Shown here: positions 462 through 40,763 of the stretch, piece after piece
Layout of the letters: each line of letters starts with the position of its first letter
Position numbering within the stretch: position 1 is the stretch's first letter
IMG/VR virus record: IMGVR_UViG_3300005253_000088
Location: 1-52,284 of that record
Length of the DNA stretch: 52,284 nt
DNA from: a virus
Lineage: Duplodnaviria; Caudoviricetes
Reading direction: 5' to 3' (one strand)
Program-made: the position numbers and the translations under genes
The notes under the pieces: generated by a model
Told to the model about the DNA's origin: nothing
Seen by the model: only the letters and a program-made list of their open reading frames with translations
Database searches by the model: none

Positions 462-475
462 GTATCATGTGATAC
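462..475. promoter_or_regulatory. Dispersed palindrome site 1, GTATCATGTGATAC (1 mismatch), intergenic
   Basis: GGTATCATGTGATACC at 461-476, between a stop codon and the tail fibre start. Confidence 0.6.
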
Positions 476-492
476 CTACATTGGAATAGAAA

Positions 493-2181
493 ATGACTGT
501 TAATACACAAGTTAAAAAAGTATCTGCTGTTGGCGATGGAGCAACGAGAACTTTCTCGTTTTCTCCTATAGTCATCTACGCTAACGATGAGCTTGAAGTT
601 ATAACGACTGTGATTGCTACAGGGGTTGAGACAGAAATCTCTCAGGGCTCCAGCTCGACTACCTATAGCATCAGTATTGCGGCCAATGGTTATCCTGACA
701 CCGGCTCTATCGACTACCCAGCCTCGGGGGGTACTCTTATACCTAATACAGTACGGATCAGTATCCGGCATAAGCCTACGATTGAAAACCTTACTGATCT
801 TAGCCCTGGTAAATATGATCCTGCGGTCCAGGAAACTCAGTATGACAAGTTTACCCGGATTATGCTTTTGCTTCAGGAGCAAGTGGATCGCTGTCTGAAA
901 CTTCCAGTGTCTTCCACGGACGTAGCTTCAGCTTTAGTAACAGAAATTGCTACACCTATCAGTGGGGATGGTACTAAAAGCTTGGTATTAAATGCTGCTG
1001 AAACAGCTTTTGCGCTGTCTGTTGCTTCCACCACCACAGGTTCTGCTTCTGATAGTACCCCAGCGGACGTAAACCTTTCAGCGGGTGCTGCTGGGTCTAA
1101 CGCGGCCTATTCACGGGATGATCATGCCCACTTTCTACCTACTACTGTTCCTCGCTTAGCTACAGAAAACGTCTACACCGAAAGCCAAGTCTGGTTTAAG
1201 GGTAGTGATGTAACTGCTGCGGGAGCGATGACACTTGGTGCTGGTAATATATTCGATATCGATGGCTCTACCCCTATAGCTACGATTACAACCATTGGCG
1301 TAGGCACTGTCATTATCTTACATTTTAACGCAGCTACTACTATTACACATAATGCTTCTGATATGGTGTTGCCCGGTGCAGAAGATATCTCTACGTTCGT
1401 TGGTTATGAACTTATGCTTCTTGAGTACGCTACGGGAGACTGGCGTTTTATTTCTGATAATGCAGACATAGCCGTGTATCGTAGGTCATCTGTAGACTTT
1501 ACTTTAAAGACCACTCTTCAAACAGATTTTCATGGAGACACGCTAGACGGAAACCTGTGGAATGCGACAGCAGGTGGGGGCTCTGGTAACGCTGTGGCCA
1601 TGTCAGCGGGGGCTGGAGGTAGGTATAGTCTGCTTACGTCAAGCGCAGATGAAGGCGCTACCCACGCTAACGGTGCTTCAGGCATCAGTAGCGCTGCTTT
1701 GAATTGGCGGGCTGACCAAGGCGGGTTAACTTTAGAAGCTCGTATACAGGTGGACGATATCACAAGCGTTGCCATCTTTGTCGGCTTTACAGATGTGGAG
1801 AGTACGACAGTTGAGTTGCCTATCTTTAAGACTGTTGGTGCTGATACTATCGACAGTGATGCTGTCAATGCGTGCGGGGTTGGTTTTGACACAGACGGTA
1901 CTACTGATCAATGGTTTCATGGGGGAGTGAAAGCAAATACGGATACTGCCGCCACTCATTCCGGCTCTGCTCCAGTTAACGACACTTGGGCTACAATCAG
2001 GGTTGAAGTCGGCCTGTCTGGGGCGGTTAGAGGGTTTATAAACGGAATAGCCATAGGAACTGCTACATTTAGTGCGGTTACAGCTACTACACCCCTTACT
2101 CCTGTTATCTTTGTTTGTCAACGCACGGGCTCTGCGCGTACTTTATTGGTAGATTATATTTGGTGTCAGGCTAGCAGATGA
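493..2181 (+). CDS. Tail fibre / receptor-binding protein with a C-terminal ConA/LamG-like domain
   Basis: N-terminus GDGATRTFSF...YDP...E...DK.T...Q is typical of podovirus fibre attachment domains. The C-terminal beta-rich domain ends LLVDYIW. The gene is last in the morphogenesis arm. Confidence 0.75.
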   Translation: MTVNTQVKKVSAVGDGATRTFSFSPIVIYANDELEVITTVIATGVETEISQGSSSTTYSISIAANGYPDTGSIDYPASGGTLIPNTVRISIRHKPTIENLTDLSPGKYDPAVQETQYDKFTRIMLLLQEQVDRCLKLPVSSTDVASALVTEIATPISGDGTKSLVLNAAETAFALSVASTTTGSASDSTPADVNLSAGAAGSNAAYSRDDHAHFLPTTVPRLATENVYTESQVWFKGSDVTAAGAMTLGAGNIFDIDGSTPIATITTIGVGTVIILHFNAATTITHNASDMVLPGAEDISTFVGYELMLLEYATGDWRFISDNADIAVYRRSSVDFTLKTTLQTDFHGDTLDGNLWNATAGGGSGNAVAMSAGAGGRYSLLTSSADEGATHANGASGISSAALNWRADQGGLTLEARIQVDDITSVAIFVGFTDVESTTVELPIFKTVGADTIDSDAVNACGVGFDTDGTTDQWFHGGVKANTDTAATHSGSAPVNDTWATIRVEVGLSGAVRGFINGIAIGTATFSAVTATTPLTPVIFVCQRTGSARTLLVDYIWCQASR

Positions 2182-2363
2182 TCAAAGACGTAGAACAGAT
2201 AGTAAAAGCTACTTGTGACATAGCAAGTATATCCTGTATCGTGGCCACGTTTATGAATATGCTGCCGAATTTAGCAGCAGGTGCTTCCTTGATTTGGGGG
2301 CTGATTAGAATTTGGGAAACGAAAACTGTTCAAAAACGAATCCGAAAATGGAGAAAGAAATGA
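2178..2363 (+). CDS. Putative holin (61 aa)
   Basis: One to two hydrophobic segments and a basic C-terminus (KRIRKWRKK). ATGA-coupled to the tail fibre gene. Confidence 0.55.
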   Translation: MIKDVEQIVKATCDIASISCIVATFMNMLPNLAAGASLIWGLIRIWETKTVQKRIRKWRKK

Positions 2364-2635
2364 GTGAATTTTTAGATGTAATCAAAAGCGCAGGCCCAGC
2401 TAAGGAAGCTGCTACTGCTGCTTTAAATCAGTTACGCACTGAGTATGAACTTGGTCTTGCGGCTTATAACGATATCTGGGGAGGGGGTACCAGTTCTAAA
2501 ACTGCTATCATGTCCTTGGTAAAGCAGTATGGGCCTATGCTTCTTAAAGCATCAGGCATCGCCCTCCCCGTGGGTATCTTATCACAGCCTGGGTTCTTGG
2601 ATAATATATTAGGTGTGTTTGGTAAGCTATTTTAG
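2360..2635 (+). CDS. Small protein with a hydrophobic C-terminus (possible lysis accessory)
   Basis: ATG at 2360 overlaps the holin TGA, preceded by a GGAG RBS. Begins MSEFLDVIK. Confidence 0.55.
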   Translation: MSEFLDVIKSAGPAKEAATAALNQLRTEYELGLAAYNDIWGGGTSSKTAIMSLVKQYGPMLLKASGIALPVGILSQPGFLDNILGVFGKLF

Positions 2636-3114
2636 GTTTTTAGCTTATCTTGGGGCTCTAGCCCTGGCAGGGGCGGTTCGTCTTCTGGCTCCATCCTCTC
2701 CTTAAAATACTTATCTTGTACTTTGAGATTTGCATCTACTTCTTTTAGTGCGATTATAAAATTGTAGCTCTTATCTTGAGATAAATCTGTGCTTTTTAGT
2801 ACCTCATGTAAATACCCCATGACATTAAACAGCAAACCGCATAAAGCATCTTGAAAGGCAACTTCAGCTTCTGGCCTTTGGCGATGAATAGCCCATACAT
2901 CCATAAAATGCCTCCAAGCTGACTTCATGTAAGAATCAAGAGGCACCCCTTTCTGCCAGTTATCACTATCCCGTATTGACCCGTCAGCCATCTTACGATG
3001 CTTATGAAGATATTGAACATATCGTTGTAATACTAACGGGGATAAAGCTCCTTCATAGTCCAGCTTTCCTTCTTCTGTATCTCTGGTAGCTCCAGTATCA
3101 AATGTTCGTTTCAT
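2632..3114 (-). CDS. DUF5664-like dATP/dGTP diphosphohydrolase domain protein
   Basis: F.TGA.RD...GK.DY, NWQKG.P..SY..SA.RH and ALC.LLFN motifs. Confidence 0.75.
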   Translation of the reverse strand: MKRTFDTGATRDTEEGKLDYEGALSPLVLQRYVQYLHKHRKMADGSIRDSDNWQKGVPLDSYMKSAWRHFMDVWAIHRQRPEAEVAFQDALCGLLFNVMGYLHEVLKSTDLSQDKSYNFIIALKEVDANLKVQDKYFKERMEPEDEPPLPGLEPQDKLKT

Positions 3115-6831: not shown

Positions 6832-7038
6832 TTAACTTTCCTGTGGCCGGGAAATGAAGTCAATACCGTTTGAATCCCATTCAGGATAAGCATCTATTGA
6901 AACTACCGTCACTAGCAAAGCTTCGTCATTAACGCCTGAGATACCATTGATAACAGTACCCCCCTTGAACCGTTCCCCAATACTATGATTTTCATACTCT
7001 TTATCTGAAACATGATGTACTTCATAATGATGTGTCAT
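6832..7038 (-). CDS. Hypothetical protein
   Basis: ATGA-coupled to the polymerase stop codon. Confidence 0.5.
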   Translation of the reverse strand: MTHHYEVHHVSDKEYENHSIGERFKGGTVINGISGVNDEALLVTVVSIDAYPEWDSNGIDFISRPQES

Positions 7039-9020
7039 TTCCTATACCTCTTTCCAGTCCAGGTTTCAACTTTAATAGGCCAATCTTTGGCCCAATCACC
7101 AGGACATTCATTCATAATCTCAGCAAATTCTTTTTCACTGCCAAAGCCCGCAGGCACTTCGCAAACGATTTCATCATAAACAGTGAGGATCACGTGATAC
7201 CCAGCGTCTTCAGCTCGTTTTACAGCCGGGGCTAGTATCTCTCTGCTGGTGGCTTGCACTGCGTTTTCCGTTAGTTTCCCCCCGTAAGTACCAACCCGCT
7301 TCCACTGCCCCTCTTTATTGGCCATGTAGGTAAGCTTATTCACTGGCTTACAGTTGCAGGTGCCATTTTCGCAGTCTTGGTTAACGGAAGGTTTATGCCA
7401 GTGGGGCATGGACAGCTTCACTTGCGGATCACGGTACCAGATACGCTTGCTGTTTGGCAATTCCATAGCAAGCCATTCATCCACCATCGTAAATCGAATG
7501 CCGTTATAAGATGTTATGATACCTGGATTTTGGACGGCTTCAATAGCATCTTCTTGCAGGGCTTGCCATAGGTTTACAATAGCTGGATGTTCTCCACGCC
7601 AGGATTTACAGATTTTGATAATTCTTTCGTCGCTATGCCTTCCACTATTATCAAACTTAAGCCATGCACCAAGCGCACCCTGATAACCAAATGCCAATTC
7701 CCCGGTTTTCCCGTCCTGTCTTTCTGTCGGATGCGTGGCTTTAGTAACGGTGCCAGGAGGTAAGCCGTAAATTTTATCAGCCATGAATTCATAAATTTTT
7801 ACACCTTTCCTGAAAGCGTCCACTTTCCATTCTTCACCCGCAATACACGCGAGAATAACAGCCTCAACCGAAACGAAATCACCCGAGATAATTTTGTTGC
7901 CTTCTTCTGCCATGATCCAGTGCCGAGACGCCTTAGAAATCGCATCCATGGCGTCTCCGTAGGCGCAATCGAGCCACTCAGCGTCACCATACATGATATC
8001 TCTGACAAGTTGTTCTGGGGCTGTATCCTCAAAGCCGCGAGTGAGATTGAGGGGCTGAAACCCAGAACCAGTGTTTCTTCCTGTCCCGGCTCCATGATAA
8101 CGCGTCTGAAACCGGGCACGCCCGTCCATTCCACGCTGACGGGACATGGCATCGAGTTTTTTAGTTGAAGCTTTGTTGATCCATAGTCGGATTTGAAGTG
8201 CAGTTCTAACAGGGCCACTGGGTAAGTCTCCTTCTTCTAGCAGTTCCTTCAAATAATCAGCTTGCATGTTCTCCAGCTCAACCCCTTCACCTCGGAACCA
8301 ATCCATTAGCTTAGCGGTTTGGGTAGGGTTGAGGTTGGTAAGCTTACGAAATTCTTTTGTCAATTCCTTGCTGCGCTGCTCTACGATCTTGGTGGCCGCA
8401 TCTATTCCTTCTTGATCCAGATAAAGCCCACGCATGTTAATCTTTTGGTCAAGCAAAAATATCTCTAACTCTTTATCAGGAAGATCACCTAACTCATCGC
8501 TGACTGCTTGTTCTAGCTGAACATCCCACTTGCAATAATCGACAAATTTACGGAAATCTTCAGGCGGTATCTCAGTCTTGGCAGTCTTCAGATAAAGCTT
8601 GGAATATTTAGTGATCAGCCTACCACCTTCTGGGTCTTTGCCTGGGAACCCTAGCGCCCGCGCCAATCGATCTAAGGCAGCGGGCATGGCGTAGTAACAA
8701 GCGACAGCCATAGTATCACGCCATTGTTCATCTTTTGGGATAGGCCAATTATAGCGCTTCGACATAATGTTATGCCAAATTGACTTTTCAAATGAAACAT
8801 TATGAGCTTCAATAAGATAGCCATCTTGTAAAGCGCTCTCTAAATCACTGGGTATAAAATACCAAGAGCCTTTCACTGGCCACCACTCCTGTACCGGCTC
8901 GTTATCAATAGCCCAACAAGCACAGATAACTTCAGTCGTGGGGTGCTCGGAATACGCCCAAGCCCCAACTTTAGTTAAATCTGCAAATGATTTAGTTTCA
9001 AAATCTATTGTAACAGTCAT
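7035..9020 (-). CDS. polA: Family A DNA polymerase (APSE-type, 3'-5' exonuclease plus polymerase domains)
   Basis: Exo I IDFET and AHN..FE; YHGAGTGR; motif A GDFVSVEA; motif B RQDGKTGELAFGY; ENAVQA; motif C VYDE. Start set at ATG 9020 (ATGA overlap). Confidence 0.93.
   Translation of the reverse strand: MTVTIDFETKSFADLTKVGAWAYSEHPTTEVICACWAIDNEPVQEWWPVKGSWYFIPSDLESALQDGYLIEAHNVSFEKSIWHNIMSKRYNWPIPKDEQWRDTMAVACYYAMPAALDRLARALGFPGKDPEGGRLITKYSKLYLKTAKTEIPPEDFRKFVDYCKWDVQLEQAVSDELGDLPDKELEIFLLDQKINMRGLYLDQEGIDAATKIVEQRSKELTKEFRKLTNLNPTQTAKLMDWFRGEGVELENMQADYLKELLEEGDLPSGPVRTALQIRLWINKASTKKLDAMSRQRGMDGRARFQTRYHGAGTGRNTGSGFQPLNLTRGFEDTAPEQLVRDIMYGDAEWLDCAYGDAMDAISKASRHWIMAEEGNKIISGDFVSVEAVILACIAGEEWKVDAFRKGVKIYEFMADKIYGLPPGTVTKATHPTERQDGKTGELAFGYQGALGAWLKFDNSGRHSDERIIKICKSWRGEHPAIVNLWQALQEDAIEAVQNPGIITSYNGIRFTMVDEWLAMELPNSKRIWYRDPQVKLSMPHWHKPSVNQDCENGTCNCKPVNKLTYMANKEGQWKRVGTYGGKLTENAVQATSREILAPAVKRAEDAGYHVILTVYDEIVCEVPAGFGSEKEFAEIMNECPGDWAKDWPIKVETWTGKRYRK
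7187..7200. promoter_or_regulatory. Dispersed palindrome site 2, GGATCACGTGATAC (1 mismatch), inside polA
   Basis: Direct sequence match. Confidence 0.5.
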
Positions 9021-9337
9021 TTTGGGTGCCAATGCCCCCCTACTACTATGTGGCATCTCTCGTGATGCAACACCCTCTCATACATGTCTTTTGACAGGTG
9101 CCGGTTGATGATAATATATGGTGGCTCTTGCTCCCCTAGCCAAAATGTGGCCCCCCATAGGGTTTCCCCCAGCTTAATTTTATAACGTTCTTGAATTTCT
9201 GCTAGATATGACGAACTAACTTTAATAACTTCGATGTGAGCCGTTAATTCTGTAAGATCGCGTAGGCATTCAGGAGGATATTTATACCCATCCGGGCTAC
9301 TGAATAATAATGCTGTTGCAAGAAATAGCTCTATCAT
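9017..9337 (-). CDS. Small HExxH protein with a hydrophobic N-terminus (possible exported zinc metallopeptidase-like)
   Basis: MIELFLATALLFSS and I.IN..L......VLHHERCH. Confidence 0.55.
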   Translation of the reverse strand: MIELFLATALLFSSPDGYKYPPECLRDLTELTAHIEVIKVSSSYLAEIQERYKIKLGETLWGATFWLGEQEPPYIIINRHLSKDMYERVLHHERCHIVVGGHWHPK

Positions 9338-9347
9338 GTTAATTCCG

Positions 9348-9557
9348 CTATCGAATATGGATAGATTTAGCTTTGTGGTTGATTTTATAGATTTTTAAAA
9401 ACTCAAGTTCAGTCCAACTTTCTGGGCTAACACGGCTAAACCTATGCCAAACTACCTTACCACAATTTGGGCAGTTTTCTGACGCAAAAACTGGAGTTTC
9501 ATCTGGCATAGAAAGCATTAAAGGTTCTCCACAGCAAGGATATTCACCGAGTATCAT
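9348..9557 (-). CDS. Small zinc-ribbon protein
   Basis: PCCGE ... CPNCGK. Confidence 0.55.
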   Translation of the reverse strand: MILGEYPCCGEPLMLSMPDETPVFASENCPNCGKVVWHRFSRVSPESWTELEFLKIYKINHKAKSIHIR

Positions 9558-9578
9558 AGCAAATCCTCAGGTAATGAA

Positions 9579-9615
9579 ATGGGGGTGTAGAACGTAGCCA
9601 CCACCACACCCCCAT
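9579..9615 (-). terminator. Stem-loop downstream of the SSB gene (terminator or processing site)
   Basis: 10-bp inverted repeat ATGGGGGTGT/ACACCCCCAT in the intergenic gap; no clear U-tract. Confidence 0.45.
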
Positions 9616-9630
9616 CCATCGGCCCCGCAT

Positions 9631-10260
9631 CTATTCTTTTGCTTTTCGGGTGCGGGTTTTACGACCTCCAGCCGCTTTGCCTACAGGCTTGAACAAGCTA
9701 CTGCTATCTGAAACTGTCACCAGCCGTTCACCGTCTCGGGTCTTTTGAAAGGCGGCTAGGTAGAACATGATAGCGTGGTTGCCTGTTCTGCTGTCTTCGT
9801 AGTTGTCGATGGTTACGCCTACGATACCATAACATCCAGGATATACCACTGATTTGTTAACGGGCTCCACCAACTCCACCTGTTCATCATAAACTTCGGC
9901 TCCACCGGCATCATCGTCACCGTTGCGATTGAAGAATGTGTGGGCACGAATAACAGTACAACCTTTGTAAGCATCTCCTTCCTTACCTTTCTCTTCCCGG
10001 CGCTTGGCTAGCCGATCTCCGTCTAACAAAGGTAGGATAATATTCCCATTGTTGAAATCGTCTTCGACTTCATTACCCCATTTTTCGATAGCGTAATCAA
10101 ACAGAATGTCCTTCAGTGCTTCGATACCAGCTTCATCATCGATAGCAACTTCAACATTATATCGGGGGGTAGCTTTTTCGTCAAACTGATCCTTGACAAA
10201 CAAACTTTCATTAATCAGACGCCCTTCAGGGAGCGCAATCTTCGTTTTCTCTTCAGCCAT
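9631..10260 (-). CDS. ssb: Single-stranded DNA-binding protein (DUF2815/gp2.5-like)
   Basis: PL.DGD, VYPGCY and ..FYL...QK.RDGERL motifs. Canonical position between DUF2800 and PolA. Confidence 0.8.
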   Translation of the reverse strand: MAEEKTKIALPEGRLINESLFVKDQFDEKATPRYNVEVAIDDEAGIEALKDILFDYAIEKWGNEVEDDFNNGNIILPLLDGDRLAKRREEKGKEGDAYKGCTVIRAHTFFNRNGDDDAGGAEVYDEQVELVEPVNKSVVYPGCYGIVGVTIDNYEDSRTGNHAIMFYLAAFQKTRDGERLVTVSDSSSLFKPVGKAAGGRKTRTRKAKE

Positions 10261-11439
10261 TTACTTCTTTCCTTTCTGGGGTTTAAACAGGGATTTGTTA
10301 CTAGTATCAACAGCAGGCCGGGTACTGGATGCCTTACCCACCGTAAGACCCTTATCAGGTTTGAAAGCATATCTTGCCGTAAAGGTTTTACCCTCGGGCA
10401 TCTCATCAATTTGAGCTGGAGACTTAAGCTTGATCTCGGTGTAAGCTCGATTACCAAACTTTGCCTTAGCTGCGTCTTCAGTGTCGGGTTTGAATTCCCG
10501 ATTGGATCGGGCCTTGATCAGCTTCCTGCCGGGTATCTTCTTACCCGCACTAAGCCTAGCGAATGCAGTCTTGGTAGCTGCTGCGCCCACGATCTTGGCC
10601 ACATCCAATAGGTCCATGAAACGCCCAACCTGGGCATTAGTCAGCTTAGCAGCAGAACCTTTTTCATCGATTTCATTTATCATAATTTCCAACTCATCAA
10701 AGTCTTTGAGAATTTGTGGGCAAGCCCGGCCACGGGCAGGACAGAACCGGCAGTGCTCGCCACTCTGAGTATCACATGATACTAAAGCCTTGTCCATGGC
10801 GGGGAGTAAAGTATCATGTAGCCATTCAGCCAGATCATCAACGCTAATTTCCCATTCCCTAAGTGGCCCATCGAAGTGAAAGCCTCTAGGTTGAGCAATG
10901 TGGATCACTACCTTATCAATATCATCCCAAAGGTCTAGTTCTTCCAGAATGCCGCAAGCGTAGTACATGCCTTGAGGGTTGCGAGCGACTTCAACAATGA
11001 TACCAACCCCATACTTTAAGTCCCAAATATCAAGCTGTCGAGCTTCCATATCTACATAGGCAACATCCGATTGACCATAGAAATATTTATGCAAGTCTGG
11101 GCGATGAAACCGTTTCTCAATAAAGAAATTGCTTTGGTTCCTGTTAGGGTGAGCTGATCTTACACCGTTAAGGTAAACCTGGACCGCATCAGCCATTTCC
11201 TTATTAACACGGATATCAGGAGTATCACTATAGTTATCAATTAGCCCCCCAATCCATTCCCAAGCATCTAAATCTTTTTTTAGACAATGTTCTCCGACTA
11301 TGTGCGCTGTAGTACCTAAAGCTGCGTATTCGCTTTCATCCTCTTCGACACCATGGCTTAGGGTAACAGAACCAGGGCAGGGTATCCATCGATAGGCTCC
11401 GCTACCGCCAAGAGGGCTATGCTGGGGGAGGTTGTTCAT
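10261..11439 (-). CDS. DUF2800 Cas4-like PD-(D/E)xK exonuclease
   Basis: HS.LG.S.A.RW..CPGS, A.LGT.AH, G..D, DLKYG.G, NPQ.M.YA.G, QPR and GEHCRFCPA..ACP. Confidence 0.9.
   Translation of the reverse strand: MNNLPQHSPLGGSGAYRWIPCPGSVTLSHGVEEDESEYAALGTTAHIVGEHCLKKDLDAWEWIGGLIDNYSDTPDIRVNKEMADAVQVYLNGVRSAHPNRNQSNFFIEKRFHRPDLHKYFYGQSDVAYVDMEARQLDIWDLKYGVGIIVEVARNPQGMYYACGILEELDLWDDIDKVVIHIAQPRGFHFDGPLREWEISVDDLAEWLHDTLLPAMDKALVSCDTQSGEHCRFCPARGRACPQILKDFDELEIMINEIDEKGSAAKLTNAQVGRFMDLLDVAKIVGAAATKTAFARLSAGKKIPGRKLIKARSNREFKPDTEDAAKAKFGNRAYTEIKLKSPAQIDEMPEGKTFTARYAFKPDKGLTVGKASSTRPAVDTSNKSLFKPQKGKK
10769..10782. promoter_or_regulatory. Dispersed palindrome site 3, GTATCACATGATAC (reverse complement of site 1), inside the DUF2800 gene
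   Basis: AGTATCACATGATACT at 10768-10783. Confidence 0.55.
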
Positions 11440-12511: not shown

Positions 12512-13996
12512 TTACTGCTTATCCAAGGCTGCGTAAATATCGATACCTTTTCTGATAGCATTACTAACTATTCTTTCGTCCATAGTACCAGGAACTACTG
12601 GCATATGACCTAAAACGTAGTCTCCCTGCTGCCCTGGCCTATGAGGACGATCAAGTAATTGTTCGTTACGGCCTTCCACCCAATCAGGTTCAGCATTAAG
12701 TACATCCTGAGCAACAGAGAAATTCCAACCCATCCCAAGCGGCCCCATTTGCCCCAATATAATACCAATGTCGGCATTACCCTGGAATTGATCAACAGCG
12801 TATTGCTTCTTAACCGTGGTCGTATTCCCATCCATATAAACAAGGCCGTGATGGGCTAGCTTTTCGCGCATGTAATCCAACACCGAATGATGCCAAGCAG
12901 CCACAACAAGCTTAGTGATACCTTCGGACATAAGCTCATTAATATAATCCACCACAGCCGGAGCCTTGGCTTCTCCCAGTAACCGTCTAGCTGTTGAAAT
13001 AGCCCCATCCACAGGCACATTCCGGTCAAAAGCACCAAGGTCCATTTCGTACATCTTCTCGGCTCGTTTCCAGCCGGGATGCTTTAGTGCCTTACGCATA
13101 GCGGGGGTAATAGCCAAGGGAAAAACATGCCAGCGTTTGGGGGGCAGCTCATGTAGCACTTGTTCCTTGAGACGGCGAACCATAACATGCTTCCGAAGCC
13201 GGTATTGGAGATCATCCAAATTGCGAGGTACATTACGAACCTTATCAGACCAATGGAGTTTACTAATCATTCGTGGTTCTATGGGGTTGTTATCCTCGTC
13301 TCGGTCTACCAGGACCGGGCTACGGATCATACCTCCGCCTAAGCCATAGTAGTAGTTGCGAAAATCAGTTAGGCTTATCTGATCAATAGCATCCCAATTT
13401 AGCAATCGGATCATGTTGTAACACTCGATAGGTTGATTAGGAAGAATTGTACCACTGGCCATGGTAATACGCCCTACCACAGAAGGTAGCATATCAGGAG
13501 CGCACAACACCTTAGTTCGTTTATTACCCTTGGGGTCTTTCAAAGCGTGGGCCTCATCAAGTATCAGGTGATCCCACATCTGATCCATGATAGCTTCAAG
13601 GATCGCCGAGTTACGAAGCATGTCATAGGAAGTGATGGTGTAGTCAGCTTTTAAACTAACGCCATCACTTGATTTTAAAATCGGGTAAGTGTTAACATTA
13701 GTTTGAGTAGACCAGCGCCAAATCTCACGCTCCCAGTTAAGCCTTAGACTGGCTGGGCACACAACTAAGGTGTTTTTTGCTTCAATAGCGTTTCCAAGCA
13801 GGATACATTCAGCCGTCTTGCCAAGACCGGGTGCGTCACCAAAGAGTGCGTTGTTTCGTTTAAGATGGTACTCGACCCCTGCAAACTGGTAATCATAAGG
13901 AACGTATTCGCCATCTTCAGGATAAGGAGCAGAGTAGAAATAAGGCTTGGTGGCTCTGGAAGCTTCTACATCAAAATCAGTCATATGCTTTTTCAT
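12512..13996 (-). CDS. SNF2-family (HARP-like) helicase
   Basis: GDAPGLGKT, VCPASL..NW, DEAH, SGT and Q..DR.HRPGQ. Start likely ATG 13996, after a GAGGGGGG RBS. Confidence 0.9.
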   Translation of the reverse strand: MKKHMTDFDVEASRATKPYFYSAPYPEDGEYVPYDYQFAGVEYHLKRNNALFGDAPGLGKTAECILLGNAIEAKNTLVVCPASLRLNWEREIWRWSTQTNVNTYPILKSSDGVSLKADYTITSYDMLRNSAILEAIMDQMWDHLILDEAHALKDPKGNKRTKVLCAPDMLPSVVGRITMASGTILPNQPIECYNMIRLLNWDAIDQISLTDFRNYYYGLGGGMIRSPVLVDRDEDNNPIEPRMISKLHWSDKVRNVPRNLDDLQYRLRKHVMVRRLKEQVLHELPPKRWHVFPLAITPAMRKALKHPGWKRAEKMYEMDLGAFDRNVPVDGAISTARRLLGEAKAPAVVDYINELMSEGITKLVVAAWHHSVLDYMREKLAHHGLVYMDGNTTTVKKQYAVDQFQGNADIGIILGQMGPLGMGWNFSVAQDVLNAEPDWVEGRNEQLLDRPHRPGQQGDYVLGHMPVVPGTMDERIVSNAIRKGIDIYAALDKQ

Positions 13997-14007
13997 CTGT
14001 GCCCCCC

Positions 14008-25155: not shown

Positions 25156-25169
25156 GTCTCACGTGATGC
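25156..25169. promoter_or_regulatory. Dispersed palindrome site 5, GTCTCACGTGATGC (2 mismatches), intergenic
   Basis: GGTCTCACGTGATGCC directly abutting the sigma54-like repeats. Confidence 0.45.
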
Positions 25170-29076: not shown

Positions 29077-29558
29077 TGAGTGATCTAAGCCAAGCTGTAG
29101 CGCTGGTTAAAGGGCTAGGCAAGCAGTATCGTGCTGTCCTGGCTGTCTCTAAAGCCTTGGAGGGGATCAACAACCTTGACTTGGCCCGAGAGAAGGCTGA
29201 GCGGACAACCAAGGACGCTATACAGGCCGCTGCGGCTGCTGAAGCTGAGCGAATTGAAGTTGAGAAGGAGCTTGATGAAGCTAACGAGGCCTTGGGTTTC
29301 GCCCGTTCTGAGGCCAAGAAGGTTTTGGCTGATGGTGATGCTAAGGCGCGGAAAGCCTTTCAGGACGCTGTAGCCAAGGGCGATAAAGTCATTCAAGAAG
29401 CAAAAGATAAGCAGGAAGCTATCGCTGATAAGGTATCACGTGATACCAAAGAGCATGATTTGAAGATGAAAAGGTTTAAAGCTTTTGAAGATGTAGCTCA
29501 GGCTAAACTTGATGCGATTCAAGAAGAGATTGATGCGTTGAAAAAGAGGTTAGGATGA
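29076..29558 (+). CDS. Coiled-coil protein
   Basis: A/E/K-rich heptad pattern throughout. Confidence 0.65.
   Translation: MSDLSQAVALVKGLGKQYRAVLAVSKALEGINNLDLAREKAERTTKDAIQAAAAAEAERIEVEKELDEANEALGFARSEAKKVLADGDAKARKAFQDAVAKGDKVIQEAKDKQEAIADKVSRDTKEHDLKMKRFKAFEDVAQAKLDAIQEEIDALKKRLG
29433..29446. promoter_or_regulatory. Dispersed palindrome site 6, perfect (16-bp GGTATCACGTGATACC at 29432-29447)
   Basis: Direct match inside a CDS. Confidence 0.65.
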
Positions 29559-33171: not shown

Positions 33172-34662
33172 ATGGCATACCTCGGTGATTATCCCGTAGA
33201 TGCTACGGCCTACATATACTTCGATAGCTTCGATGCTAACGGTGCATCCGCTAGCATCACGGGGCTGGCTGTGACTGACATTGAGATTTACAAAAATGGT
33301 TCTATTACACAGCGGGCTAGTGATGCGGGCTACACCTTGCTCGATACAGACGGTATTGACTTTGATGCTCTTGTGGGCATCAATGGCTTTTCGATTGATC
33401 TTTCAAACGATACAGATGCAGGATTTTATGCCGCTGGCGGGGAATACGTCATTGTGGTGTCATCCGTTACGTTGGAAAGCCAAACGGTCAGTTTCATAGC
33501 GGGGACATTTTCCATAGAGCGAACTGGCGGAGCGTTGGCCTTGCTCAAGGGCACCAATAGCTTGGCCAATATTAAAGCCGAGACTGCTTTGATTGTGGCT
33601 GATACAAATGAGCTTCAGACTGATGATGTACCGGGGCTTATTGCAGCTTTGAATAATATTACAGCAGCAAGCATATGGGCCGTTGATGCAACGGGGGAGC
33701 AGACACAAGGAACTTTTGGTCAAGCTATAGGTGATCCCGGGGTGGATGCTGATACTATATATGGAGCCGTTGTAACGGGTGCTGCGGGAGCAAATATTTC
33801 GGTTGATTTAATTAGCGTGAAATCAACAGTTGATAATATCGAAAACGGTGTTAGTATTATTATACAAGACACCAATGAACTTCAGACTGATGATGTACCG
33901 GGGCTTATTGCAGCCCTTAACGACATAGCCGCGACGGATATTGTTTCAGCCGGGGCCATCACTACCCTTTCGGGCGCTGTTGTAAACGTAGATTTAGTAG
34001 ACGTGCTAACAACTTACACGGGCAATACGTTGCAGACGGGAGATACATATTCTTTAGCTAACGGCGCTACTGGTTTTGTAGCGATAGATACGGTTGTTGA
34101 TGCCATCTTAGTAGACACTGGGACCACACTCCAAGCTGAGCTAGATGCTATCCAGGCCGCTGTTATCACCAACGCTGCTGGTGTTGATGTAGCTGCCGAT
34201 ATTATAGCTCTGAAGGCTGAAACTGCCCTGATTGTGGCAGATACAAATGAGCTTCAGACTGATGATGTACCGACACTTATCTCTACCTTGGATGGTGTTG
34301 TAGATACGGTTAAGGCTGAAACTGCTTTAATTGTCGCTGACACCAATGAACTTCAGACTGATTGGGCTGACGGTGGCAGACTTGATGTTATCTTAGATGC
34401 CGTCAGTGCTCCTACAGCAGCAGCGGTTGCCGACGCTGTATGGGATGAGGCACAGTCTGCTCATGTGATATCAGGAAGTTTTGGTATTATTGCTTCAGAA
34501 ATTGCGGATATTCTTATTGATACGGGTACAACTATCCCAGCCACTCTAACTGTTATCAGTGCCGATATAGCCACGACCACTAGTATAGCGGCTTCGGCAG
34601 CGGATACTCACCCACGAGTTCGCACTAGTAGAAGGCGTAGAGATGACAGACGTATCACGTGA
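33172..34662 (+). CDS. Fibre-like coiled-coil repeat protein with an Arg-rich C-terminus
   Basis: Four DTNELQTD units (three preceded by KAETALIVA); VADAVWDE motif; ends RVRTSRRRRDDRRIT. Confidence 0.7.
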   Translation: MAYLGDYPVDATAYIYFDSFDANGASASITGLAVTDIEIYKNGSITQRASDAGYTLLDTDGIDFDALVGINGFSIDLSNDTDAGFYAAGGEYVIVVSSVTLESQTVSFIAGTFSIERTGGALALLKGTNSLANIKAETALIVADTNELQTDDVPGLIAALNNITAASIWAVDATGEQTQGTFGQAIGDPGVDADTIYGAVVTGAAGANISVDLISVKSTVDNIENGVSIIIQDTNELQTDDVPGLIAALNDIAATDIVSAGAITTLSGAVVNVDLVDVLTTYTGNTLQTGDTYSLANGATGFVAIDTVVDAILVDTGTTLQAELDAIQAAVITNAAGVDVAADIIALKAETALIVADTNELQTDDVPTLISTLDGVVDTVKAETALIVADTNELQTDWADGGRLDVILDAVSAPTAAAVADAVWDEAQSAHVISGSFGIIASEIADILIDTGTTIPATLTVISADIATTTSIAASAADTHPRVRTSRRRRDDRRIT

Positions 34663-36283
34663 TACTCCCCTATCGGATGACGAACAGCTAGCTGAAGACC
34701 TAGCCGGGTTTTATGCTGATCCACTAGGCTATGTCATGTATATGTGGCCTTGGGACACGGAAGCTTCAATCCAGTTGGTGGAATTGACTCCTGAGTATTA
34801 TGAACGGTTCCCTGGAGCAAAATGTGTCAATCCCGACTGTCCTTCTAAAGACCATGATCATGCCCATGGGCCGGATAAGTGGGCTTGCGAATTCCTTGAT
34901 CAGTTAGGGGAAGATATCAAGGAACGGAATTTTGATGGTACTCACGCTGTTCGACCTATCCAAAATTCAACATCTTCTGGGCACGGTATTGGGAAAACCG
35001 TGCTTGTTGGGATGCTAATTAAATTTATTTCAGATACTCGTCCATTCTCCCGAGGGATTGTAACAGCGAATACTGCTGATCAGTTACGAACTAAAACCTG
35101 GGCTGAATTAGGTAAATGGCATCGCCTATCTTTGACTAGCCATTGGTTCACTTACACCTCTGGCCGTAATGCTATGTCACTTTATCATAACGATTTCAAG
35201 GAAGAATGGCGTTGTGATGCTCAGACTTGCCGGGAGGAAAACTCTGAAGCATTCGCTGGGCTACATGCTGCTAATTCGACTGCTTATTATATCTTTGATG
35301 AAGCTAGTGCGGTGCCAAATAGTATCTTTGAAGTGCGAGAGGGGGGTACTACTGATGGAGAGCCAATGACCTTTGACTTTGGCAACCCAACCCGTAATAG
35401 TGGCCGGTTCTTTGATAACTGTAAGGGGCGTTTTAAAGCTGACTATCGGGTACGTTGTATCGATAGTCGAGATGTTCAGATCACTAACAAAGAACGCATC
35501 GACAGATGGATTGCTTCCTACGGGGAAGATAGTGACTTTGTAAAAGTTCGTGTCAAAGGAGAATTTCCTTCAGTCGGTAGTATGCAGTTTATTGGTACTG
35601 ACGATGTAGACAGAGCTATGGAACGCGAACCAACTGTAGATCGTTATGCACCTCTTATTATTGGTGTAGATGTGGCCCGGTTTGGGGATGACGACACTGT
35701 AATTTACCCTCGCATCGGTAACGACGCCCGTTCTTTTCCTATCGAACGCTATAAAGGTTTGGATACGATTCAAGTATCAGGAAAAGTTATAGAGTGTATT
35801 CGTCGGTTTCGCGCCATTGGAATGGACCCTTCGGCGGTGTTTGTAGATGGAGGTGGTATTGGCGCTGGAGTTGTAGATTATCTTCGCCATCTTGGTTATG
35901 ATATCATCGAAGTTCAATTTGGCGGTGGTGCTACTGATAAAGATGTCTATCGTTTCAAATCAGATGAAATGTGGGGAACAATGCGTGAGGCTATCGTTAC
36001 CAAGTTAGTTCTCCCGAAGCTCACAAGCCAAGGTGGGGTAGAATTAAAGGATCAGTTGACACAACGGGAGTTTGGGTATACAATCCAGGGGAATAAGGTT
36101 CATCTTGAATCTAAAAAAGATATGAAAGAACGGCTTGGGGGTGAAGCAGCTTCTCCTGATATCGCAGATGCGTTGGCTTTGACTTACGCACAAGAAGTAG
36201 CACCTTTGCGGATAGTTGCAGGCGAAAGAACTGCCGGGAAATTGATAACCTCTGAATTTGATCCTCTTGACGGAAAATATTAG
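34643..36283 (+). CDS. terL: Terminase large subunit (APSE/BPP-1 type)
   Basis: Walker A SGHGIGKT, TANT..QL..KTWAEL.KW, FAGLH, Walker B IFDEAS, GNPTR, nuclease GVDVARFGDD and SPD.ADALALT. Confidence 0.95.
   Translation: MTDVSRDTPLSDDEQLAEDLAGFYADPLGYVMYMWPWDTEASIQLVELTPEYYERFPGAKCVNPDCPSKDHDHAHGPDKWACEFLDQLGEDIKERNFDGTHAVRPIQNSTSSGHGIGKTVLVGMLIKFISDTRPFSRGIVTANTADQLRTKTWAELGKWHRLSLTSHWFTYTSGRNAMSLYHNDFKEEWRCDAQTCREENSEAFAGLHAANSTAYYIFDEASAVPNSIFEVREGGTTDGEPMTFDFGNPTRNSGRFFDNCKGRFKADYRVRCIDSRDVQITNKERIDRWIASYGEDSDFVKVRVKGEFPSVGSMQFIGTDDVDRAMEREPTVDRYAPLIIGVDVARFGDDDTVIYPRIGNDARSFPIERYKGLDTIQVSGKVIECIRRFRAIGMDPSAVFVDGGGIGAGVVDYLRHLGYDIIEVQFGGGATDKDVYRFKSDEMWGTMREAIVTKLVLPKLTSQGGVELKDQLTQREFGYTIQGNKVHLESKKDMKERLGGEAASPDIADALALTYAQEVAPLRIVAGERTAGKLITSEFDPLDGKY
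34652..34665. promoter_or_regulatory. Dispersed palindrome site 7, perfect GTATCACGTGATAC, at the terL start
   Basis: Direct match in the overlap of two CDSs. Confidence 0.65.
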
Positions 36284-40231: not shown

Positions 40232-40253
40232 ATTAAATTGAAGGAATAAGAAT

Positions 40254-40715
40254 ATGGCTATTTTGGATGAAAGATCAGAGTTTTGTGATGCAGTTGCTGT
40301 TCCTACGGGCGGTGCTGCCACTACTCTAGTTGGCGATGTTATGGACCTGGGTTCAGTCGCTCGTGATATTGGCCAAGGTAAACCGATCTATCTAAATATT
40401 AGCGTAGATACGGCTATTGCTGGCGGTACTGCTGTTCAGTTTGTTTTGGCAAGCGACAGCACTGCTGCTATTTCAACAGACGGCTCAGAAACTCGACATT
40501 TCTTGTCTGATGTTTTCGCTGTTGCTGATTTGATTGCTGGCTTTAGCTTTAGTATTGCATTGCCTATGGGCGATGTTGCAGCTTCAGTTACTCCCTATGA
40601 GCGTTACCTTGGCATCCTGGTGGTCGGTACGGGTACTCAGTCAGCTGGCGCTATTAATGCGTTTCTGTCTGTTGATCCGCACGGCTGGCGTAGTTATCCT
40701 GACGCTAATAACTAG
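40254..40715 (+). CDS. Bbp16-like capsid cement protein
   Basis: MAILD....F.D...., D..DL....RD.G.G.P.YL, ERYLG and AG.INAFL. Confidence 0.85.
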   Translation: MAILDERSEFCDAVAVPTGGAATTLVGDVMDLGSVARDIGQGKPIYLNISVDTAIAGGTAVQFVLASDSTAAISTDGSETRHFLSDVFAVADLIAGFSFSIALPMGDVAASVTPYERYLGILVVGTGTQSAGAINAFLSVDPHGWRSYPDANN

Positions 40716-40726
40716 GCGATATAATT

Positions 40727-40750
40727 CTCCGGGGGCAGTTGCTCCCGGAG
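40727..40750 (+). terminator. Hairpin after the capsid/cement genes
   Basis: CTCCGGGGGCA-GT-TGCTCCCGGAG stem; followed by a palindrome site rather than a U-tract. Confidence 0.5.
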
Positions 40751-40763
40751 TATCACGTGATAC
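40750..40763. promoter_or_regulatory. Dispersed palindrome site 8, perfect GTATCACGTGATAC, intergenic
   Basis: Direct match between the hairpin and the RBS of the next gene. Confidence 0.7.

What the first reader, a model, noticed from the sequence alone, without database searches (positions are those of the whole stretch)
462..40763. Genome-wide dispersed parS-like palindrome GTATCACGTGATAC (8 sites) with no ParB or repressor recognised
Seen: perfect copies at 29433, 34652 and 40750; 1-mismatch copies at 462, 7187, 10769 and 16527; a 2-mismatch copy at 25156. Neighbouring sites are 3.6-8.6 kb apart and occur in both transcription arms. Three are intergenic at module boundaries and five lie inside genes (polA, DUF2800, DUF3102-like, coiled-coil, terL start). 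Three exact copies of a 14-mer in 52 kb are far beyond chance (4^14 = 2.7e8). Known: chromosomal parS is TGTTTCACGTGAAACA, and this motif has the same core with a symmetric T-to-A change (GTA vs GTT). Dispersed intragenic operators are also known as L5 'stoperators'. Inference: a dimeric protein binds along the whole genome. It could be a phage-encoded organiser/repressor (best candidate 16136-16966, which has a site in its own gene) or a co-opted host ParB/SMC-loading factor used to segregate, compact or shield a non-integrated phage DNA.
Basis: partly seen in the sequence, partly recalled or inferred. Interest (0 to 1): 0.85.

Follow-up and report, generated by a model that had tools for sequence, protein, structure and literature searches.

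The report
Dispersed palindromic binding sites across phage
A 16-base palindrome scattered along this uncultured phage genome, far more abundant in its distant relatives, is most likely the docking site of a previously undescribed phage protein whose gene sits among the replication genes, but what that binding achieves is still unknown.

Summary
GTATCACGTGATAC occurs 3 times exactly, 4 times with one mismatch and 2 times with two mismatches in the 52,284-bp window. Shuffles expect 0.07.

The window is a near-complete IMG/VR podovirus genome. Distant relatives (40-65% protein identity, GC 49-65%) carry the same motif as a 16-bp palindrome, GGTATCACGTGATACC. They hold up to 27 copies per 48.8 kb. 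Other clades use variants that all keep the central ACGT.

- **Placement:** sites are mostly intergenic (54 of 93, 11.3 expected). They are evenly spaced, and inside genes they are written into tolerant protein loops.
- **Evidence for that gene:** it is predicted to form a homodimer. It is present wherever the motif is. A site flanks it in 20 of 24 cases. Residues in a basic helix track the motif variant.
- **Host ParB:** use of host ParB is not supported.

Best reading: a phage-encoded dimer binds sites dispersed along the genome, in the manner of stoperators or KorB. The downstream role, transcription control or replication, is unresolved. This is a new variant of a known kind.

The parts
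462..475 (.). Site, one mismatch (GTATCATGTGATAC). It has G and C flanks. It is intergenic, 17 nt upstream of the ATG of gene 493-2181.
   Evidence: Homologues of gene 493-2181 in G005, G003, G002, G004 and G006 each have a site 10-32 nt upstream of their start.
7187..7200 (.). Site, one mismatch (GGATCACGTGATAC), inside polA about 150 nt before its stop.
   Evidence: An exact site lies at the same distance from the polA stop in G001 (4281).
10769..10782 (.). Site, one mismatch (GTATCACATGATAC), inside DUF2800. It is read as V-S-C-D-T in a variable loop just before the G-E-H-C-R-F-C motif.
   Evidence: The orthologous position carries the exact motif in G001, G002, G003 and G005, but other residues and no motif in G004, G006, G008 and G009.
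13561..13574 (.). Weak copy, two mismatches (GTATCAGGTGATCC), inside the SNF2 helicase gene.
   Evidence: Its status as a working site is uncertain.
16527..16540 (.). Site, one mismatch (GGATCACGTGATAC), inside the candidate reader gene itself.
   Evidence: In relatives the site usually flanks the gene instead.
25156..25169 (.). Weak copy, two mismatches (GTCTCACGTGATGC), in the about 950-bp non-coding region between the two divergent arms.
29433..29446 (.). Exact site with the full 16-bp form. It lies in frame V-S-R-D-T inside ORF 29076-29558.
34652..34665 (.). Exact 14-mer. Its internal TGA is the stop of ORF 33172-34662, and it also encodes residues 4-8 of terL (start 34643).
   Evidence: G001 has the same arrangement (site 25604, stop at 25612-25614).
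40750..40763 (.). Exact 14-mer. It is intergenic, directly after a GC-rich hairpin that follows gene 40254-40715, and 13 nt before the ATG of gene 40777-41118.
   Evidence: At a similar position beside the capsid-gene neighbour, G001, G003 and G005 have the motif at the tip of a longer palindrome.
16136..16966 (-). Candidate reader ('A1', 276 aa). It has a Lys/Ala/Pro-rich tail, a helical hairpin, a helix-turn-helix-like pair, a basic helix (118-143) and a helical C-terminal domain.
12512..14041 (-). SNF2-type helicase, part of the replication module that co-occurs with the motif.
18838..20811 (+). Prim-Pol plus AAA_25 helicase fusion, part of the same module. A1 lies between this gene and SNF2 here and in G006, G008 and G009.
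7035..11439 (-). polA, Enc34-type ssDNA-binding protein and DUF2800 nuclease. These are the rest of the module found in 7 of 7 motif genomes and in 0 of 3 complete relatives without the motif.

Best explanation
The palindromes are double-stranded DNA binding sites for a phage-encoded homodimer, the 276-aa product of 16136-16966 ('A1').

**Proposed binding.** Each half of the dimer reads one half-site, GG-N-N-T-N-AC, probably with the basic helix 118-143. On that helix the invariant R126 and R137 bracket variable residues 129, 132 and 133.

**Site layout.** Sites are kept along the whole chromosome, about 2-7 kb apart. They sit wherever they cost least: squeezed between a stop codon and the next ribosome-binding site, or written into tolerant protein loops.

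**Proposed role.** I commit to a genome-wide control role. Bound dimers would act as fixed roadblock or nucleation points that insulate or silence transcription across both arms, and would autoregulate A1 through the site next to its gene. This would work like L5 stoperators or KorB operators.

**Shown.** The enrichment, family-wide conservation, clade-specific variants, DNA-level selection, even spacing, linkage to A1, and a homodimer prediction that beat its controls.

**Inferred.** That A1 binds the sites, which residues read them, and the role.
For: **Real and ancient**
- The window has 9 copies against 0.07 expected.
- The same 14-mer, allowing one mismatch, occurs 27, 17, 22, 12 and 8 times in five relatives. 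The reversed-pattern control gives 0 in all five.
- Those relatives share only 40-65% protein identity with the window and have GC of 49-65%.

**Selection acts on DNA, not on the protein**
- In DUF2800 the motif sits in a loop whose residues differ in genomes that lack it there (VSRDT against QTSTDT, QDATDV, ETSTET, EAAMDP).
- Its V, S and D codons are identical in all 5 carriers (R is CGT in 4 and changed to Cys in the window), while 10 of 12 flanking conserved codons vary at the third base (my count).

**Double-stranded, two-fold reader rather than a hairpin**
- The whole 16-mer, including its centre, is self-complementary in every clade variant.
- Flanks show base preference but no extra pairing: at offset 2, 62 of 132 pair against 62.6 expected.
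- Many sites have one altered half only.

- Full-length A1 is present in every motif-bearing record that is near-complete (G000-G003, G005, G006, G008), and also in the 23%-complete G004.
- It is absent from three complete relatives without the motif.
- G009 has the rest of the module at 44-63% identity but only a truncated 164-aa homologue, and it has no dispersed palindrome.
- 20 of 24 A1 genes have a site within 150 nt of one end, 16 of them just past the stop. Roughly 2-3 would be expected from the loci's own densities (my arithmetic).
- The homodimer model scores ipSAE 0.67 against a best control of 0.00. That mark was reached by 20 of 30 proteins solved as pairs of one chain and 1 of 23 solved as single chains. 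The runs agree in at least 85% of contacts and the partner's pLDDT is at least 72.
- N129 with N133 occurs in 12 of 14 proteins from GGT(A/C)TCAC genomes and in 0 of 11 from GGGATCAC, GGKATYAC and GGTGTGAC genomes.
- One paralogue (c35698b) groups with the GGGATCAC clade at 91/85 support, yet carries N..N like its own genome's motif.

**Role**
- 54 of 93 sites are outside genes (11.3 expected), and 33 of 93 lie within 40 nt upstream of a start codon (6.1 expected).
- Sites are densest among the small early genes of G001.
- Dispersed operator sets are established in other phages and plasmids (abstracts seen; section 8 of PMC4351075 read).
Against: - No binding has been measured.
- A1 matches no known DNA-binding family: Pfam, PHROGs, PDB sequences, Foldseek against PDB and BFVD with no match at E <= 0.001. 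The best VIA Z-score, 7.4, is non-specific.
- The motif co-occurs with the whole replication module, not with A1 alone.
- The covariation rests on few independent clades, and the A1 tree is largely unresolved: 11 of 22 inner branches are open.
- G001b and G004 break the N..N rule. G009's truncated homologue keeps N..N although its genome has no sites.

Against a transcriptional role in particular:
- Intergenic gaps of about 35-40 nt leave no room for promoters.
- Sites are significantly evenly spaced even against a null that respects gene boundaries: CV 0.43-0.57 against 0.89-0.97, with a fraction of at most 0.001 in three genomes.
- Conserved sites sit in the middle of long genes.
- The structural arm, which must be expressed late, also carries sites.
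- The 40 ORFs scanned showed no integrase or classical repressor. A lysogeny-type silencing role therefore lacks context. About 30 small ORFs were not scanned.
- G006 is not evenly spaced (CV 0.94).
Confidence: 0.45

Rival explanations
1. The sites serve replication. A1, alone or with the Prim-Pol helicase, uses the palindromes as dispersed assembly points for the replication machinery. These would be symmetric loading sites for two helicases, or fixed priming sites on both strands.
For: - A1 lies inside the replication module, between SNF2 and Prim-Pol.
- The motif is found only with that module.
- Perfect two-fold symmetry gives the same site on both strands.
- Sites are evenly spaced against a gene-boundary null, and conserved sites lie inside long genes such as polA, DUF2800 and Prim-Pol, as well as in the largest structural genes.
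- A site lies next to the A1 gene, as origins lie next to initiator genes (the comparison is from general knowledge).
Against: - I know of no precedent for tens of origins or sequence-fixed priming sites in a 50-kb phage (recalled, not searched).
- The window has gaps up to 12.9 kb and G006 up to 13.8 kb, too long if sites were needed for every lagging-strand start.
- G009 has the Prim-Pol at 51% identity but no sites.
- Density is highest among the small early genes of G001, about one per gene, which spacing alone does not need.
Confidence: 0.25
2. The motif works in RNA. It would form a short hairpin in front of ribosome-binding sites that stabilises, processes or controls translation of the messages.
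For: - 33 of 93 sites lie within 40 nt upstream of a start codon.
- The sequence can form a 6-bp stem with an ACGT loop.
- Some copies sit at the tip of longer, terminator-like palindromes.
Against: - A hairpin does not need a self-complementary loop, yet the centre is palindromic in every variant.
- There is no excess pairing in the flanks.
- One-sided changes that break the stem are common. GCATCACGTGATAC occurs 7 times in G003 (plus once in the reverse orientation) and would give a C-A mismatch in rightward transcripts.
- Conserved copies lie in the middle of genes.
Confidence: 0.05
3. A host protein reads the sites. This could be ParB, or another conserved factor, recruited to the phage DNA.
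For: - Papers on ParB hold that sequence (listing and abstract starts only).
- Conservation across phages of very different GC content would fit a conserved host factor.
Against: - The motif differs between clades at positions 3, 4 and 6 of the half-site.
- Nothing in the window lies within 3 mismatches of parS.
- Each of 5 bacterial genomes that hold the 16-mer has a single copy, so no host multi-site system was seen. The hosts of these phages are unknown, so this check is weak.
- The link to a phage gene is strong.
Confidence: 0.03
4. The sites mark a chemical event on the DNA: nicking, cleavage or base modification by a phage or host enzyme.
For: - The window encodes nucleotide-metabolism enzymes: a dCMP deaminase and weak matches to deoxyribosyltransferase and dNTP diphosphohydrolase families.
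- Some podoviruses carry site-specific nicks (recalled, not checked).
Against: - A palindrome nicked on both strands would break the genome.
- No methyltransferase or nicking enzyme was seen in the 40 ORFs scanned.
- 16 bp is far longer than usual modification sites (general knowledge).
- Only assembled contigs of the runs are held, so read ends could not be examined.
Confidence: 0.04
5. The copies are selfish or neutral repeats of the REP or MITE type, or recombination scars, with no function for the phage.
For: There are many identical short palindromes, mostly between genes.
Against: - Positions are conserved between genomes that share only about 50% protein identity.
- Copies occur in frame inside genes.
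- The unit is only 16 bp.
- No transposase was seen in the 40 ORFs scanned.
- Spacing is more even than chance.
Confidence: 0.03

Closest known systems
17-bp dyad repeat of Cluster O mycobacteriophages (TGTTCGGNNNCCGAACA), PMC4351075. I read section 8 and passages.
   Same: - It is a dyad-symmetric short repeat present more than 30 times across about 70-kb phage genomes.
- Of 34 copies in Corndog, 14 are between genes, 10 are near 5' ends of genes and 10 are inside genes.
- Positions are largely shared between relatives.
   Different: - The sequence differs and has a 3-bp spacer, and the hosts and phage type (siphoviruses of Actinobacteria) are different.
- The five Cluster O genomes are close relatives. 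Here the motif persists across about 50% protein divergence, varies by clade, and can be tied to one candidate gene.
Stoperators of Cluster A mycobacteriophages (L5 gp71 type), PMC9283540. I saw only the start of the abstract.
   Same: Many repressor-binding sites are distributed across the phage genome and act on transcription elongation. Their position in short intergenic gaps in both arms is recalled, not checked.
   Different: - The title and abstract start describe a monomeric repressor that recognises an asymmetric sequence. Here the site is a perfect palindrome and the candidate is predicted to be a dimer.
- Those phages are temperate (recalled). No integrase or immunity repressor was found among the 40 ORFs scanned here.
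KorB and its operators on plasmid RK2, PMC11790492. I saw only the start of the abstract.
   Same: A site-specific protein bound at sites spread over a roughly 60-kb replicon silences genes at a distance. The number of operators (12) and their palindromic form are recalled.
   Different: KorB is a ParB-family CTPase clamp. No ParB_N domain is encoded in the window, and A1 shows no nucleotide-binding family.
ParB-parS chromosome and plasmid partition, PMC4333373 and others. I saw listings and abstract starts only.
   Same: - It uses a 16-bp palindrome with a CACGTG core, read by a homodimer.
That parS often follows parB is recalled.
   Different: - The motif differs from parS at 4 of 16 bases.
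- No ParB_N domain is encoded, and no ParA was seen in the ORFs scanned.
- Sites are dispersed, not clustered.
- The phage shows no sign of plasmid-like maintenance, and A1 has no match in the plasmid collection.
Eukaryotic bZIP factors on ACGT-core elements (G-box CACGTG, CRE TGACGTCA). Recalled only.
   Same: The targets are palindromes with an invariant ACGT centre, including both a CACGTG form and a TGACGTCA form (G006). A1 has a basic helix, R-x2-N-x2-A-N-x3-R, followed by a C-terminal dimerising part. It loosely recalls the bZIP basic region, N-x2-A-A-x2-(C/S)-R.
   Different: There is no leucine zipper, no sequence or fold match was found, and the spacing of residues agrees only in part. 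This is a resemblance from memory, not a test.

Membership tests
ParABS partition system (parS site) | The site matches the parS consensus TGTTNCACGTGAAACA. | tested here: not met
   The motif is 4 of 16 bases away. The window has 0 matches within 3 mismatches.
ParABS partition system (parS site) | A ParB protein with the ParB_N (CTPase) domain is encoded. | tested here: not met
   A six-frame search of the window with PF02195 gives 0 matches at E <= 0.1. The control matches in 11 of 14 genomes.
ParABS partition system (parS site) | A partner ParA ATPase is present. | tested here: inconclusive
   None was found among the 40 ORFs scanned with Pfam. About 30 small ORFs were not scanned.
Stoperator system (Cluster A mycobacteriophages) | The site is asymmetric and is read by a monomeric immunity repressor. 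| tested here: not met
   The site is a perfect palindrome and the candidate is predicted to be a homodimer. The defining feature is taken from the title and abstract start of PMC9283540.
Stoperator system (Cluster A mycobacteriophages) | Many sites are spread over the whole genome, mostly in short intergenic gaps. | tested here: met
   54 of 93 sites are outside genes and lie in both arms.
Stoperator system (Cluster A mycobacteriophages) | The sites block transcription elongation. | not testable with these tools
   No RNA run is listed for this phage. A reporter assay is needed.
Cluster O-type dyad repeats | A short dyad-symmetric repeat is present tens of times, between and inside genes, with positions shared by relatives. 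| tested here: met
   Relatives hold 27 copies in 48.8 kb (G001) and 22 in 44.6 kb (G003), with shared positions. The window itself has only 7-9 copies.
   The VIA match to Spo0J (1vz0, Z 6.5, rmsd 3.0, 63 aligned) is tied with unrelated helical proteins.
Pfam DUF3102 (PF11300) | The protein matches the family model above its cut-off. | tested here: not met
   No match at E <= 1 for 6 family members, nor at E <= 10 in a six-frame search of the window.
Pfam DUF3102 (PF11300) | The protein has a related fold or features. | tested here: inconclusive
   In the Atlas look-up, a cluster in which 27% of members carry DUF3102 scores 0.91 by features. By structure, a cluster that is 93% DUF3102 aligns to residues 40-129 with TM 0.70 by the row and 0.27 by the query. 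Both fall under the tool's bar for naming a family.
bZIP-type basic-region reader | A basic region N-x2-A-A-x2-(C/S)-R is followed by a leucine zipper. | not tested
   The signature is recalled from memory. A1 has R126-x2-N-x2-A-N-x3-R137 and no zipper heptads were looked for. No PDB sequence match appears at E <= 10 other than unrelated proteins.
REP / MITE-type selfish palindromes | Copies are extragenic, mobile, and accompanied by a cognate transposase. | tested here: not met
   39 of 93 copies are inside genes, nearly all in one reading frame. Positions are conserved at about 50% protein identity. No transposase was seen in the scanned ORFs.

The most novel reading that the evidence does not exclude
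A1 founds a new class of sequence-specific DNA reader. The dimer would be held together at both ends, by an N-terminal helical bundle and a C-terminal domain. It would read ACGT-core palindromes with a pair of basic helices and could close around the DNA. Its evenly spaced sites would be the fixed points from which the phage's Prim-Pol helicase replication machinery is loaded or primed in both directions. That would make it a phage chromosome with many programmed replication start sites, for which I know no precedent.
Probability: 0.15. Interest if true: 0.9.

Novelty: new variant of a known kind. Interest (0 to 1): 0.7.

Why it matters
- **A testable site-reader pair.** Here the same phenomenon spans a large uncultured family: at least 546 terL relatives in IMG/VR and 715 protein clusters for the candidate.
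- **Natural variation in specificity.** The site comes in several natural variants, which gives a ready-made set of swap experiments.
- **An unannotated DNA-binding family.** The candidate protein matches no Pfam, PHROGs or PDB entry. Confirming it would add a new DNA-binding family and a compact, orthogonal set of protein-operator pairs.
- **A possible new principle.** If the role turns out to be in replication or chromosome organisation rather than transcription, it would be a new principle for small phage genomes.

Tried and rejected
- **G009 repeats as origin iterons.** The tandem repeats in G009 (CCGTAAACACGAGC, 22.7-23.5 kb) looked like half-site iterons. They lie inside long minus-strand ORFs that encode hexapeptide repeats of the ARVYGK type, so they are coding repeats.
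- **Recognition by the helix-turn-helix-like helix 103-110.** Its residues vary within one motif class and recur across classes, for example SYENIRKL in both GGTATCAC and GGGATCAC genomes. It shows no covariation.
- **Longer hairpins.** There is no excess complementarity beyond the 16-18 bp. The small excess at offset 5 (46 against 34.4, reached by 18 of 2000 shuffles, uncorrected) probably comes from the few terminator-embedded copies.
- **Close cultured relatives.**
  - Megablast of 20 kb against 50,697 phage records gave no match.
  - A1 by tblastn gave no match in the phage or plasmid collections.
  - Structural genes reach 45-54% identity to BPP-1-like podoviruses, and polA reaches 38% at best.
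- **Literature.** Searching the motif strings returned only eukaryotic E-box/CLEAR-box papers and primer hits among the 20 listed of 611. DUF3102 occurs in 3 papers, and none of their titles or abstract starts concerns its function (listing only).
- **Fold searches.** These gave nothing specific. Four weak BFVD rows named 'DnaA C-terminal' (E 0.8-1.9) are not evidence.
- **Sequencing runs.** No RNA holder is listed, and the four DNA holders are kept as contigs only. Read ends, nicks and expression could not be examined, and read laying was not used.
- **Incomplete records.** G007 and G010 carry motif variants but no A1 in the part held (65% and 60% complete). This says nothing either way.

Full report
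**1. The observation**

The window is a whole IMG/VR virus record: 52,284 bp, linear, estimated 95% complete. GTATCACGTGATAC occurs:
- exactly at 29433, 34652 and 40750;
- with one mismatch at 462, 7187, 10769 and 16527;

Dinucleotide-preserving shuffles expect 0.07 matches, and none of 100 shuffles reaches 9. A shuffle of synonymous codons within my gene calls cannot touch the three intergenic copies. It gives a mean of 4.1 and a maximum of 7, and 0 of 300 shuffles reach 9. The stated contexts are right.

**2. What the genome is**

The left arm (about 2.6-25 kb) runs mostly on the minus strand.
- It encodes a family-A DNA polymerase, an Enc34-type ssDNA-binding protein, a DUF2800 nuclease and an SNF2 helicase. 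It also holds a Prim-Pol/AAA_25 fusion, which is on the plus strand.
- It also holds a dCMP deaminase and a PD-(D/E)XK/Hjc-like nuclease.

The right arm, on the plus strand, holds terS, tail genes, terL, portal, protease and the major head protein. Portal and capsid are 45-54% identical to BPP-1-like podoviruses. No nucleotide-level relative exists among 50,697 phage records. The 40 ORFs scanned showed no integrase, repressor, ParA or ParB.

**3. The motif belongs to a whole phage family**

A scan of IMG/VR for the exact 14-mer found contigs with many copies. Allowing one mismatch, counts over whole records were as follows:

| Record | Length | Copies |
|---|---|---|
| G001 | 48.8 kb, terminal repeats | 27 |
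| G003 | 44.6 kb | 22 |
| G005 | 48.1 kb | 17 |
| G002 | 48.2 kb | 12 |
| G004 | 25.5 kb | 8 |

The reversed-pattern control gave 0 in all five.

- These are distant relatives of the window. Core proteins are 40-65% identical and GC is 49-65%, against 45.7% in the window.
- In them the motif is a 16-bp palindrome, GGTATCACGTGATACC. The flanking G and C are present in 119 of 132 sites.
- A terL-based search found at least 546 relatives.
- Some clades use variants: GGGATCAC, GGCATCAC, GGTCTCAC, GACATCAC, GGTATTAC and GGTGTGAC half-sites. All have ACGT at the centre. Many relatives have none.

**4. Where the sites sit**

I used a crude gene caller of my own on six genomes and 93 sites.
- 54 sites are not inside a gene, against 11.3 expected.
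- 33 sites lie within 40 nt upstream of a start codon, against 6.1 expected.
- The gaps are minimal. Often the stop codon abuts the motif and the ribosome-binding site follows within 4-12 nt, which leaves no room for a promoter.
- Intragenic copies are almost all in the frame GTA-TCA-CGT-GAT-AC. One of the other two frames contains TGA.

Several positions are shared by relatives:
- upstream of the homologues of gene 493-2181;
- at the start of terL;
- about 150 nt before the polA stop;
- in one loop of DUF2800.

In that DUF2800 loop, genomes with the motif read VSRDT. G008, G006, G009 and G004 read QTSTDT, QDATDV, ETSTET and EAAMDP, with no motif. The V, S and D codons are identical in all five carriers (the Arg codon is CGT in four; the window has TGT, its one mismatch). 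By contrast, 10 of 12 flanking conserved codons vary at the third base (my count). The DNA is therefore imposing on the protein, not the reverse.

**5. Spacing**

Sites are more even than chance. The coefficient of variation of gaps is 0.43-0.57, against about 0.9 for random placement, in 6 of 7 genomes. The same holds against a null that draws intergenic sites from real gene boundaries: the fraction of nulls at or below the observed value is at most 0.001 in G001, G003 and G005, and about 0.03 in G002 and the window. G006 is an exception (CV 0.94), with 8 of 10 sites in its early and replication arm. In G001, density is highest among the small early genes.

**6. Duplex or hairpin**

Three observations favour a two-fold symmetric reader of duplex DNA.
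- Beyond the 16-18 bp there is base preference (T..A at offset 2) but no excess pairing: 62 of 132 against 62.6 expected.
- One-sided changes are common. An example is GCATCACGTGATAC, seven times in G003 plus once in the reverse orientation.
- The centre stays self-complementary in every variant, which a hairpin loop would not require.

**7.

*Co-occurrence.* The motif travels with the replication module.
- polA, the ssDNA-binding protein, DUF2800 and the 276-aa ORF are present in 7 of 7 motif genomes.
- They are absent from three complete relatives that share the structural genes but have no motif.
- Within the module the 276-aa ORF ('A1') stands out. G009 has the other module genes at 44-63% identity, but only a 164-aa homologue that lacks the N-terminal part, and it has no dispersed palindrome.
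- Every contig with a full-length A1 that I examined has dispersed ACGT-core sites, some of them degenerate.

*Linkage.* A site lies within 150 nt of one end of the A1 gene in 20 of 24 cases, 16 of them just past the stop. Site densities are only 0.2-1.2 per kb.

*The family.* A1 belongs to a large family: 715 clusters at E <= 0.001 in a library of 1.8 billion representatives. It has no match in Pfam, PHROGs or PDB sequences.

*Structure.* The AlphaFold model is confident (mean pLDDT 87) and all-helical. Fold searches give nothing specific. An Atlas look-up points weakly to DUF3102, a family for which three papers hold the name and none appears, by title and abstract start, to address its function (listing only).

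*Dimer.* A homodimer prediction scores ipSAE 0.67 against a best control of 0.00. The runs agree in at least 85% of contacts and the partner's pLDDT is at least 72. That mark was reached by 20 of 30 proteins solved as pairs of one chain and by 1 of 23 solved as single chains. The counts hold only roughly, because my own alignment was used. The interface uses the N-terminal hairpin (37-89) and the C-terminal domain (159-246).

**8. Covariation**

On the basic helix 118-143, R126 is invariant and R137 nearly so. They bracket variable residues.
- N129 with N133 occurs in 12 of 14 proteins from genomes with GGT(A/C)TCAC sites.
- It occurs in 0 of 11 proteins from genomes with GGGATCAC, GGKATYAC or GGTGTGAC sites.
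- One paralogue (c35698b) groups with the GGGATCAC-type clade at 91/85 support, yet has N..N like its genome's motif.

Against this:
- G001b and G004 break the rule.
- G009's truncated protein keeps N..N without any sites.
- The tree is mostly unresolved.
- The number of independent changes is small.
- The helix-turn-helix-like helix shows no such pattern.

The likeness of this basic helix and of ACGT-core targets to bZIP factors is a recollection, not a test.

**9. Host factor**

- The motif is 4 of 16 bases from the parS consensus, and nothing in the window lies within 3 mismatches of it.
- No ParB_N domain is encoded.
- The 16-mer occurs in many bacterial assemblies, but singly. 5 of 5 whole genomes checked have one copy each, allowing one mismatch.
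- The contexts are unrelated coding or intergenic sequences. Four of the 120 loci are phage-like.
- The hosts of this phage family remain unknown, so this is weak evidence. The clade-specific variation is the stronger argument against a conserved host reader.

**10. Mechanism**

I consider it well supported, at about 0.8, that the sites are duplex binding sites of a phage-encoded dimer and that A1 is that protein. The role is open.
- **Transcription control (about 0.4).** Weighing precedent, I commit to genome-wide transcription control or insulation with autoregulation. The precedents are stoperators, KorB, and the unexplained Cluster O repeats whose description matches this case closely.
- **Replication (about 0.25).** Even spacing, conserved sites inside long genes, perfect symmetry, and the position of A1 between the two helicase genes fit a replication role at least as naturally.
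- **RNA hairpin, host factor, nick or modification, selfish repeat.** These readings are each unlikely, for the reasons given under rival explanations.

**11. Novelty**

- The motif strings do not appear in phage literature among the 20 listed of 611 hits.
- The protein family is unannotated.
- The kind of feature, dispersed operator-like repeats, is known.
- New here are the palindrome family with natural specificity variants, its depth of conservation, and a nameable candidate reader.
- The window itself is a sparse, partly degenerate member: 7 copies within one mismatch, and only two with the full 16-bp flanks.

Noticed in passing
window 25406-25435 (+), with the A/T-rich stretch at 25355-25385: A near-consensus sigma-70-type promoter (TTGACA, 18 nt, TATACT; 11 of 12 bases) lies behind an A-rich tract. 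It faces the terS and structural arm. Overall the region has no more promoter-like hits than shuffles do.
   Followed up: partly
window 24746-24765 and 25135-25154: Two copies of a different 16-20 bp palindrome (CCTATCTAYTGATAGG) lie 369 nt apart and bracket the small leftward gene 24831-25052. They may be operators of another regulator.
   Followed up: no
window 25170-25243, and 24528-25080: There are three copies of CCATGCAAGTATCATGCCA just right of the weak site at 25156. There are also three copies, about 260 nt apart, of a roughly 34-nt leader (…CCATAAGTGAGGGG…) in front of small leftward genes.
   Followed up: no
window 2632-4208 (-): A nucleotide-metabolism cluster. It holds a dCMP deaminase (E 1e-17) and weak, below-cut-off matches to nucleoside 2-deoxyribosyltransferase and to the N-terminus of a dATP/dGTP diphosphohydrolase. 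This may hint at modified DNA.
   Followed up: no
window 32389-33168 (+) and 44477-48187 (+): A tail-fibre-like protein carries YadA-head repeats. The conserved 1236-aa virion protein carries two E1_FCCH-like stretches.
   Followed up: no
G001 (L122/L123) 17776, 19387, 19613: Three copies of a symmetric variant, GCTATCACGTGATAGC, lie in the early region of a genome that has two A1 paralogues. One paralogue has different residues (H..T..Q) on the basic helix. This may be a second site-reader pair.
   Followed up: partly
G001, G006, G008, L266, L275: Five genomes carry two A1 paralogues. In G008 and L275 two half-site classes coexist (GGGATCAC with GGTATCAC or GGGATAAC).
   Followed up: partly
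G009 (L251) 22.6-23.9 kb: An 18-bp tandem repeat (CCGTAAACACGAGC plus 4 nt) turned out to encode hexapeptide repeats (ARVYGK / ARIFGN) in two long minus-strand ORFs.
   Followed up: yes
L288, L297, L300, L346, L349, L367, L394 (Actinomyces, Trueperella and Pauljensenia assemblies): The 16-mer sits at the centre of a conserved palindrome of about 40 bp (…GGTTGAGGGCTT-motif-AAGCCCTCAACC…) in several Actinomycetaceae genomes. This is an unrelated conserved element of unknown role.
   Followed up: no
L380 (a bacterial assembly locus), about 1039-2955: A Prim-Pol homologue 51% identical to the window's lies next to a copy of the 16-mer in a bacterial assembly. It could point to a host or to a binned phage contig.
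   Followed up: no
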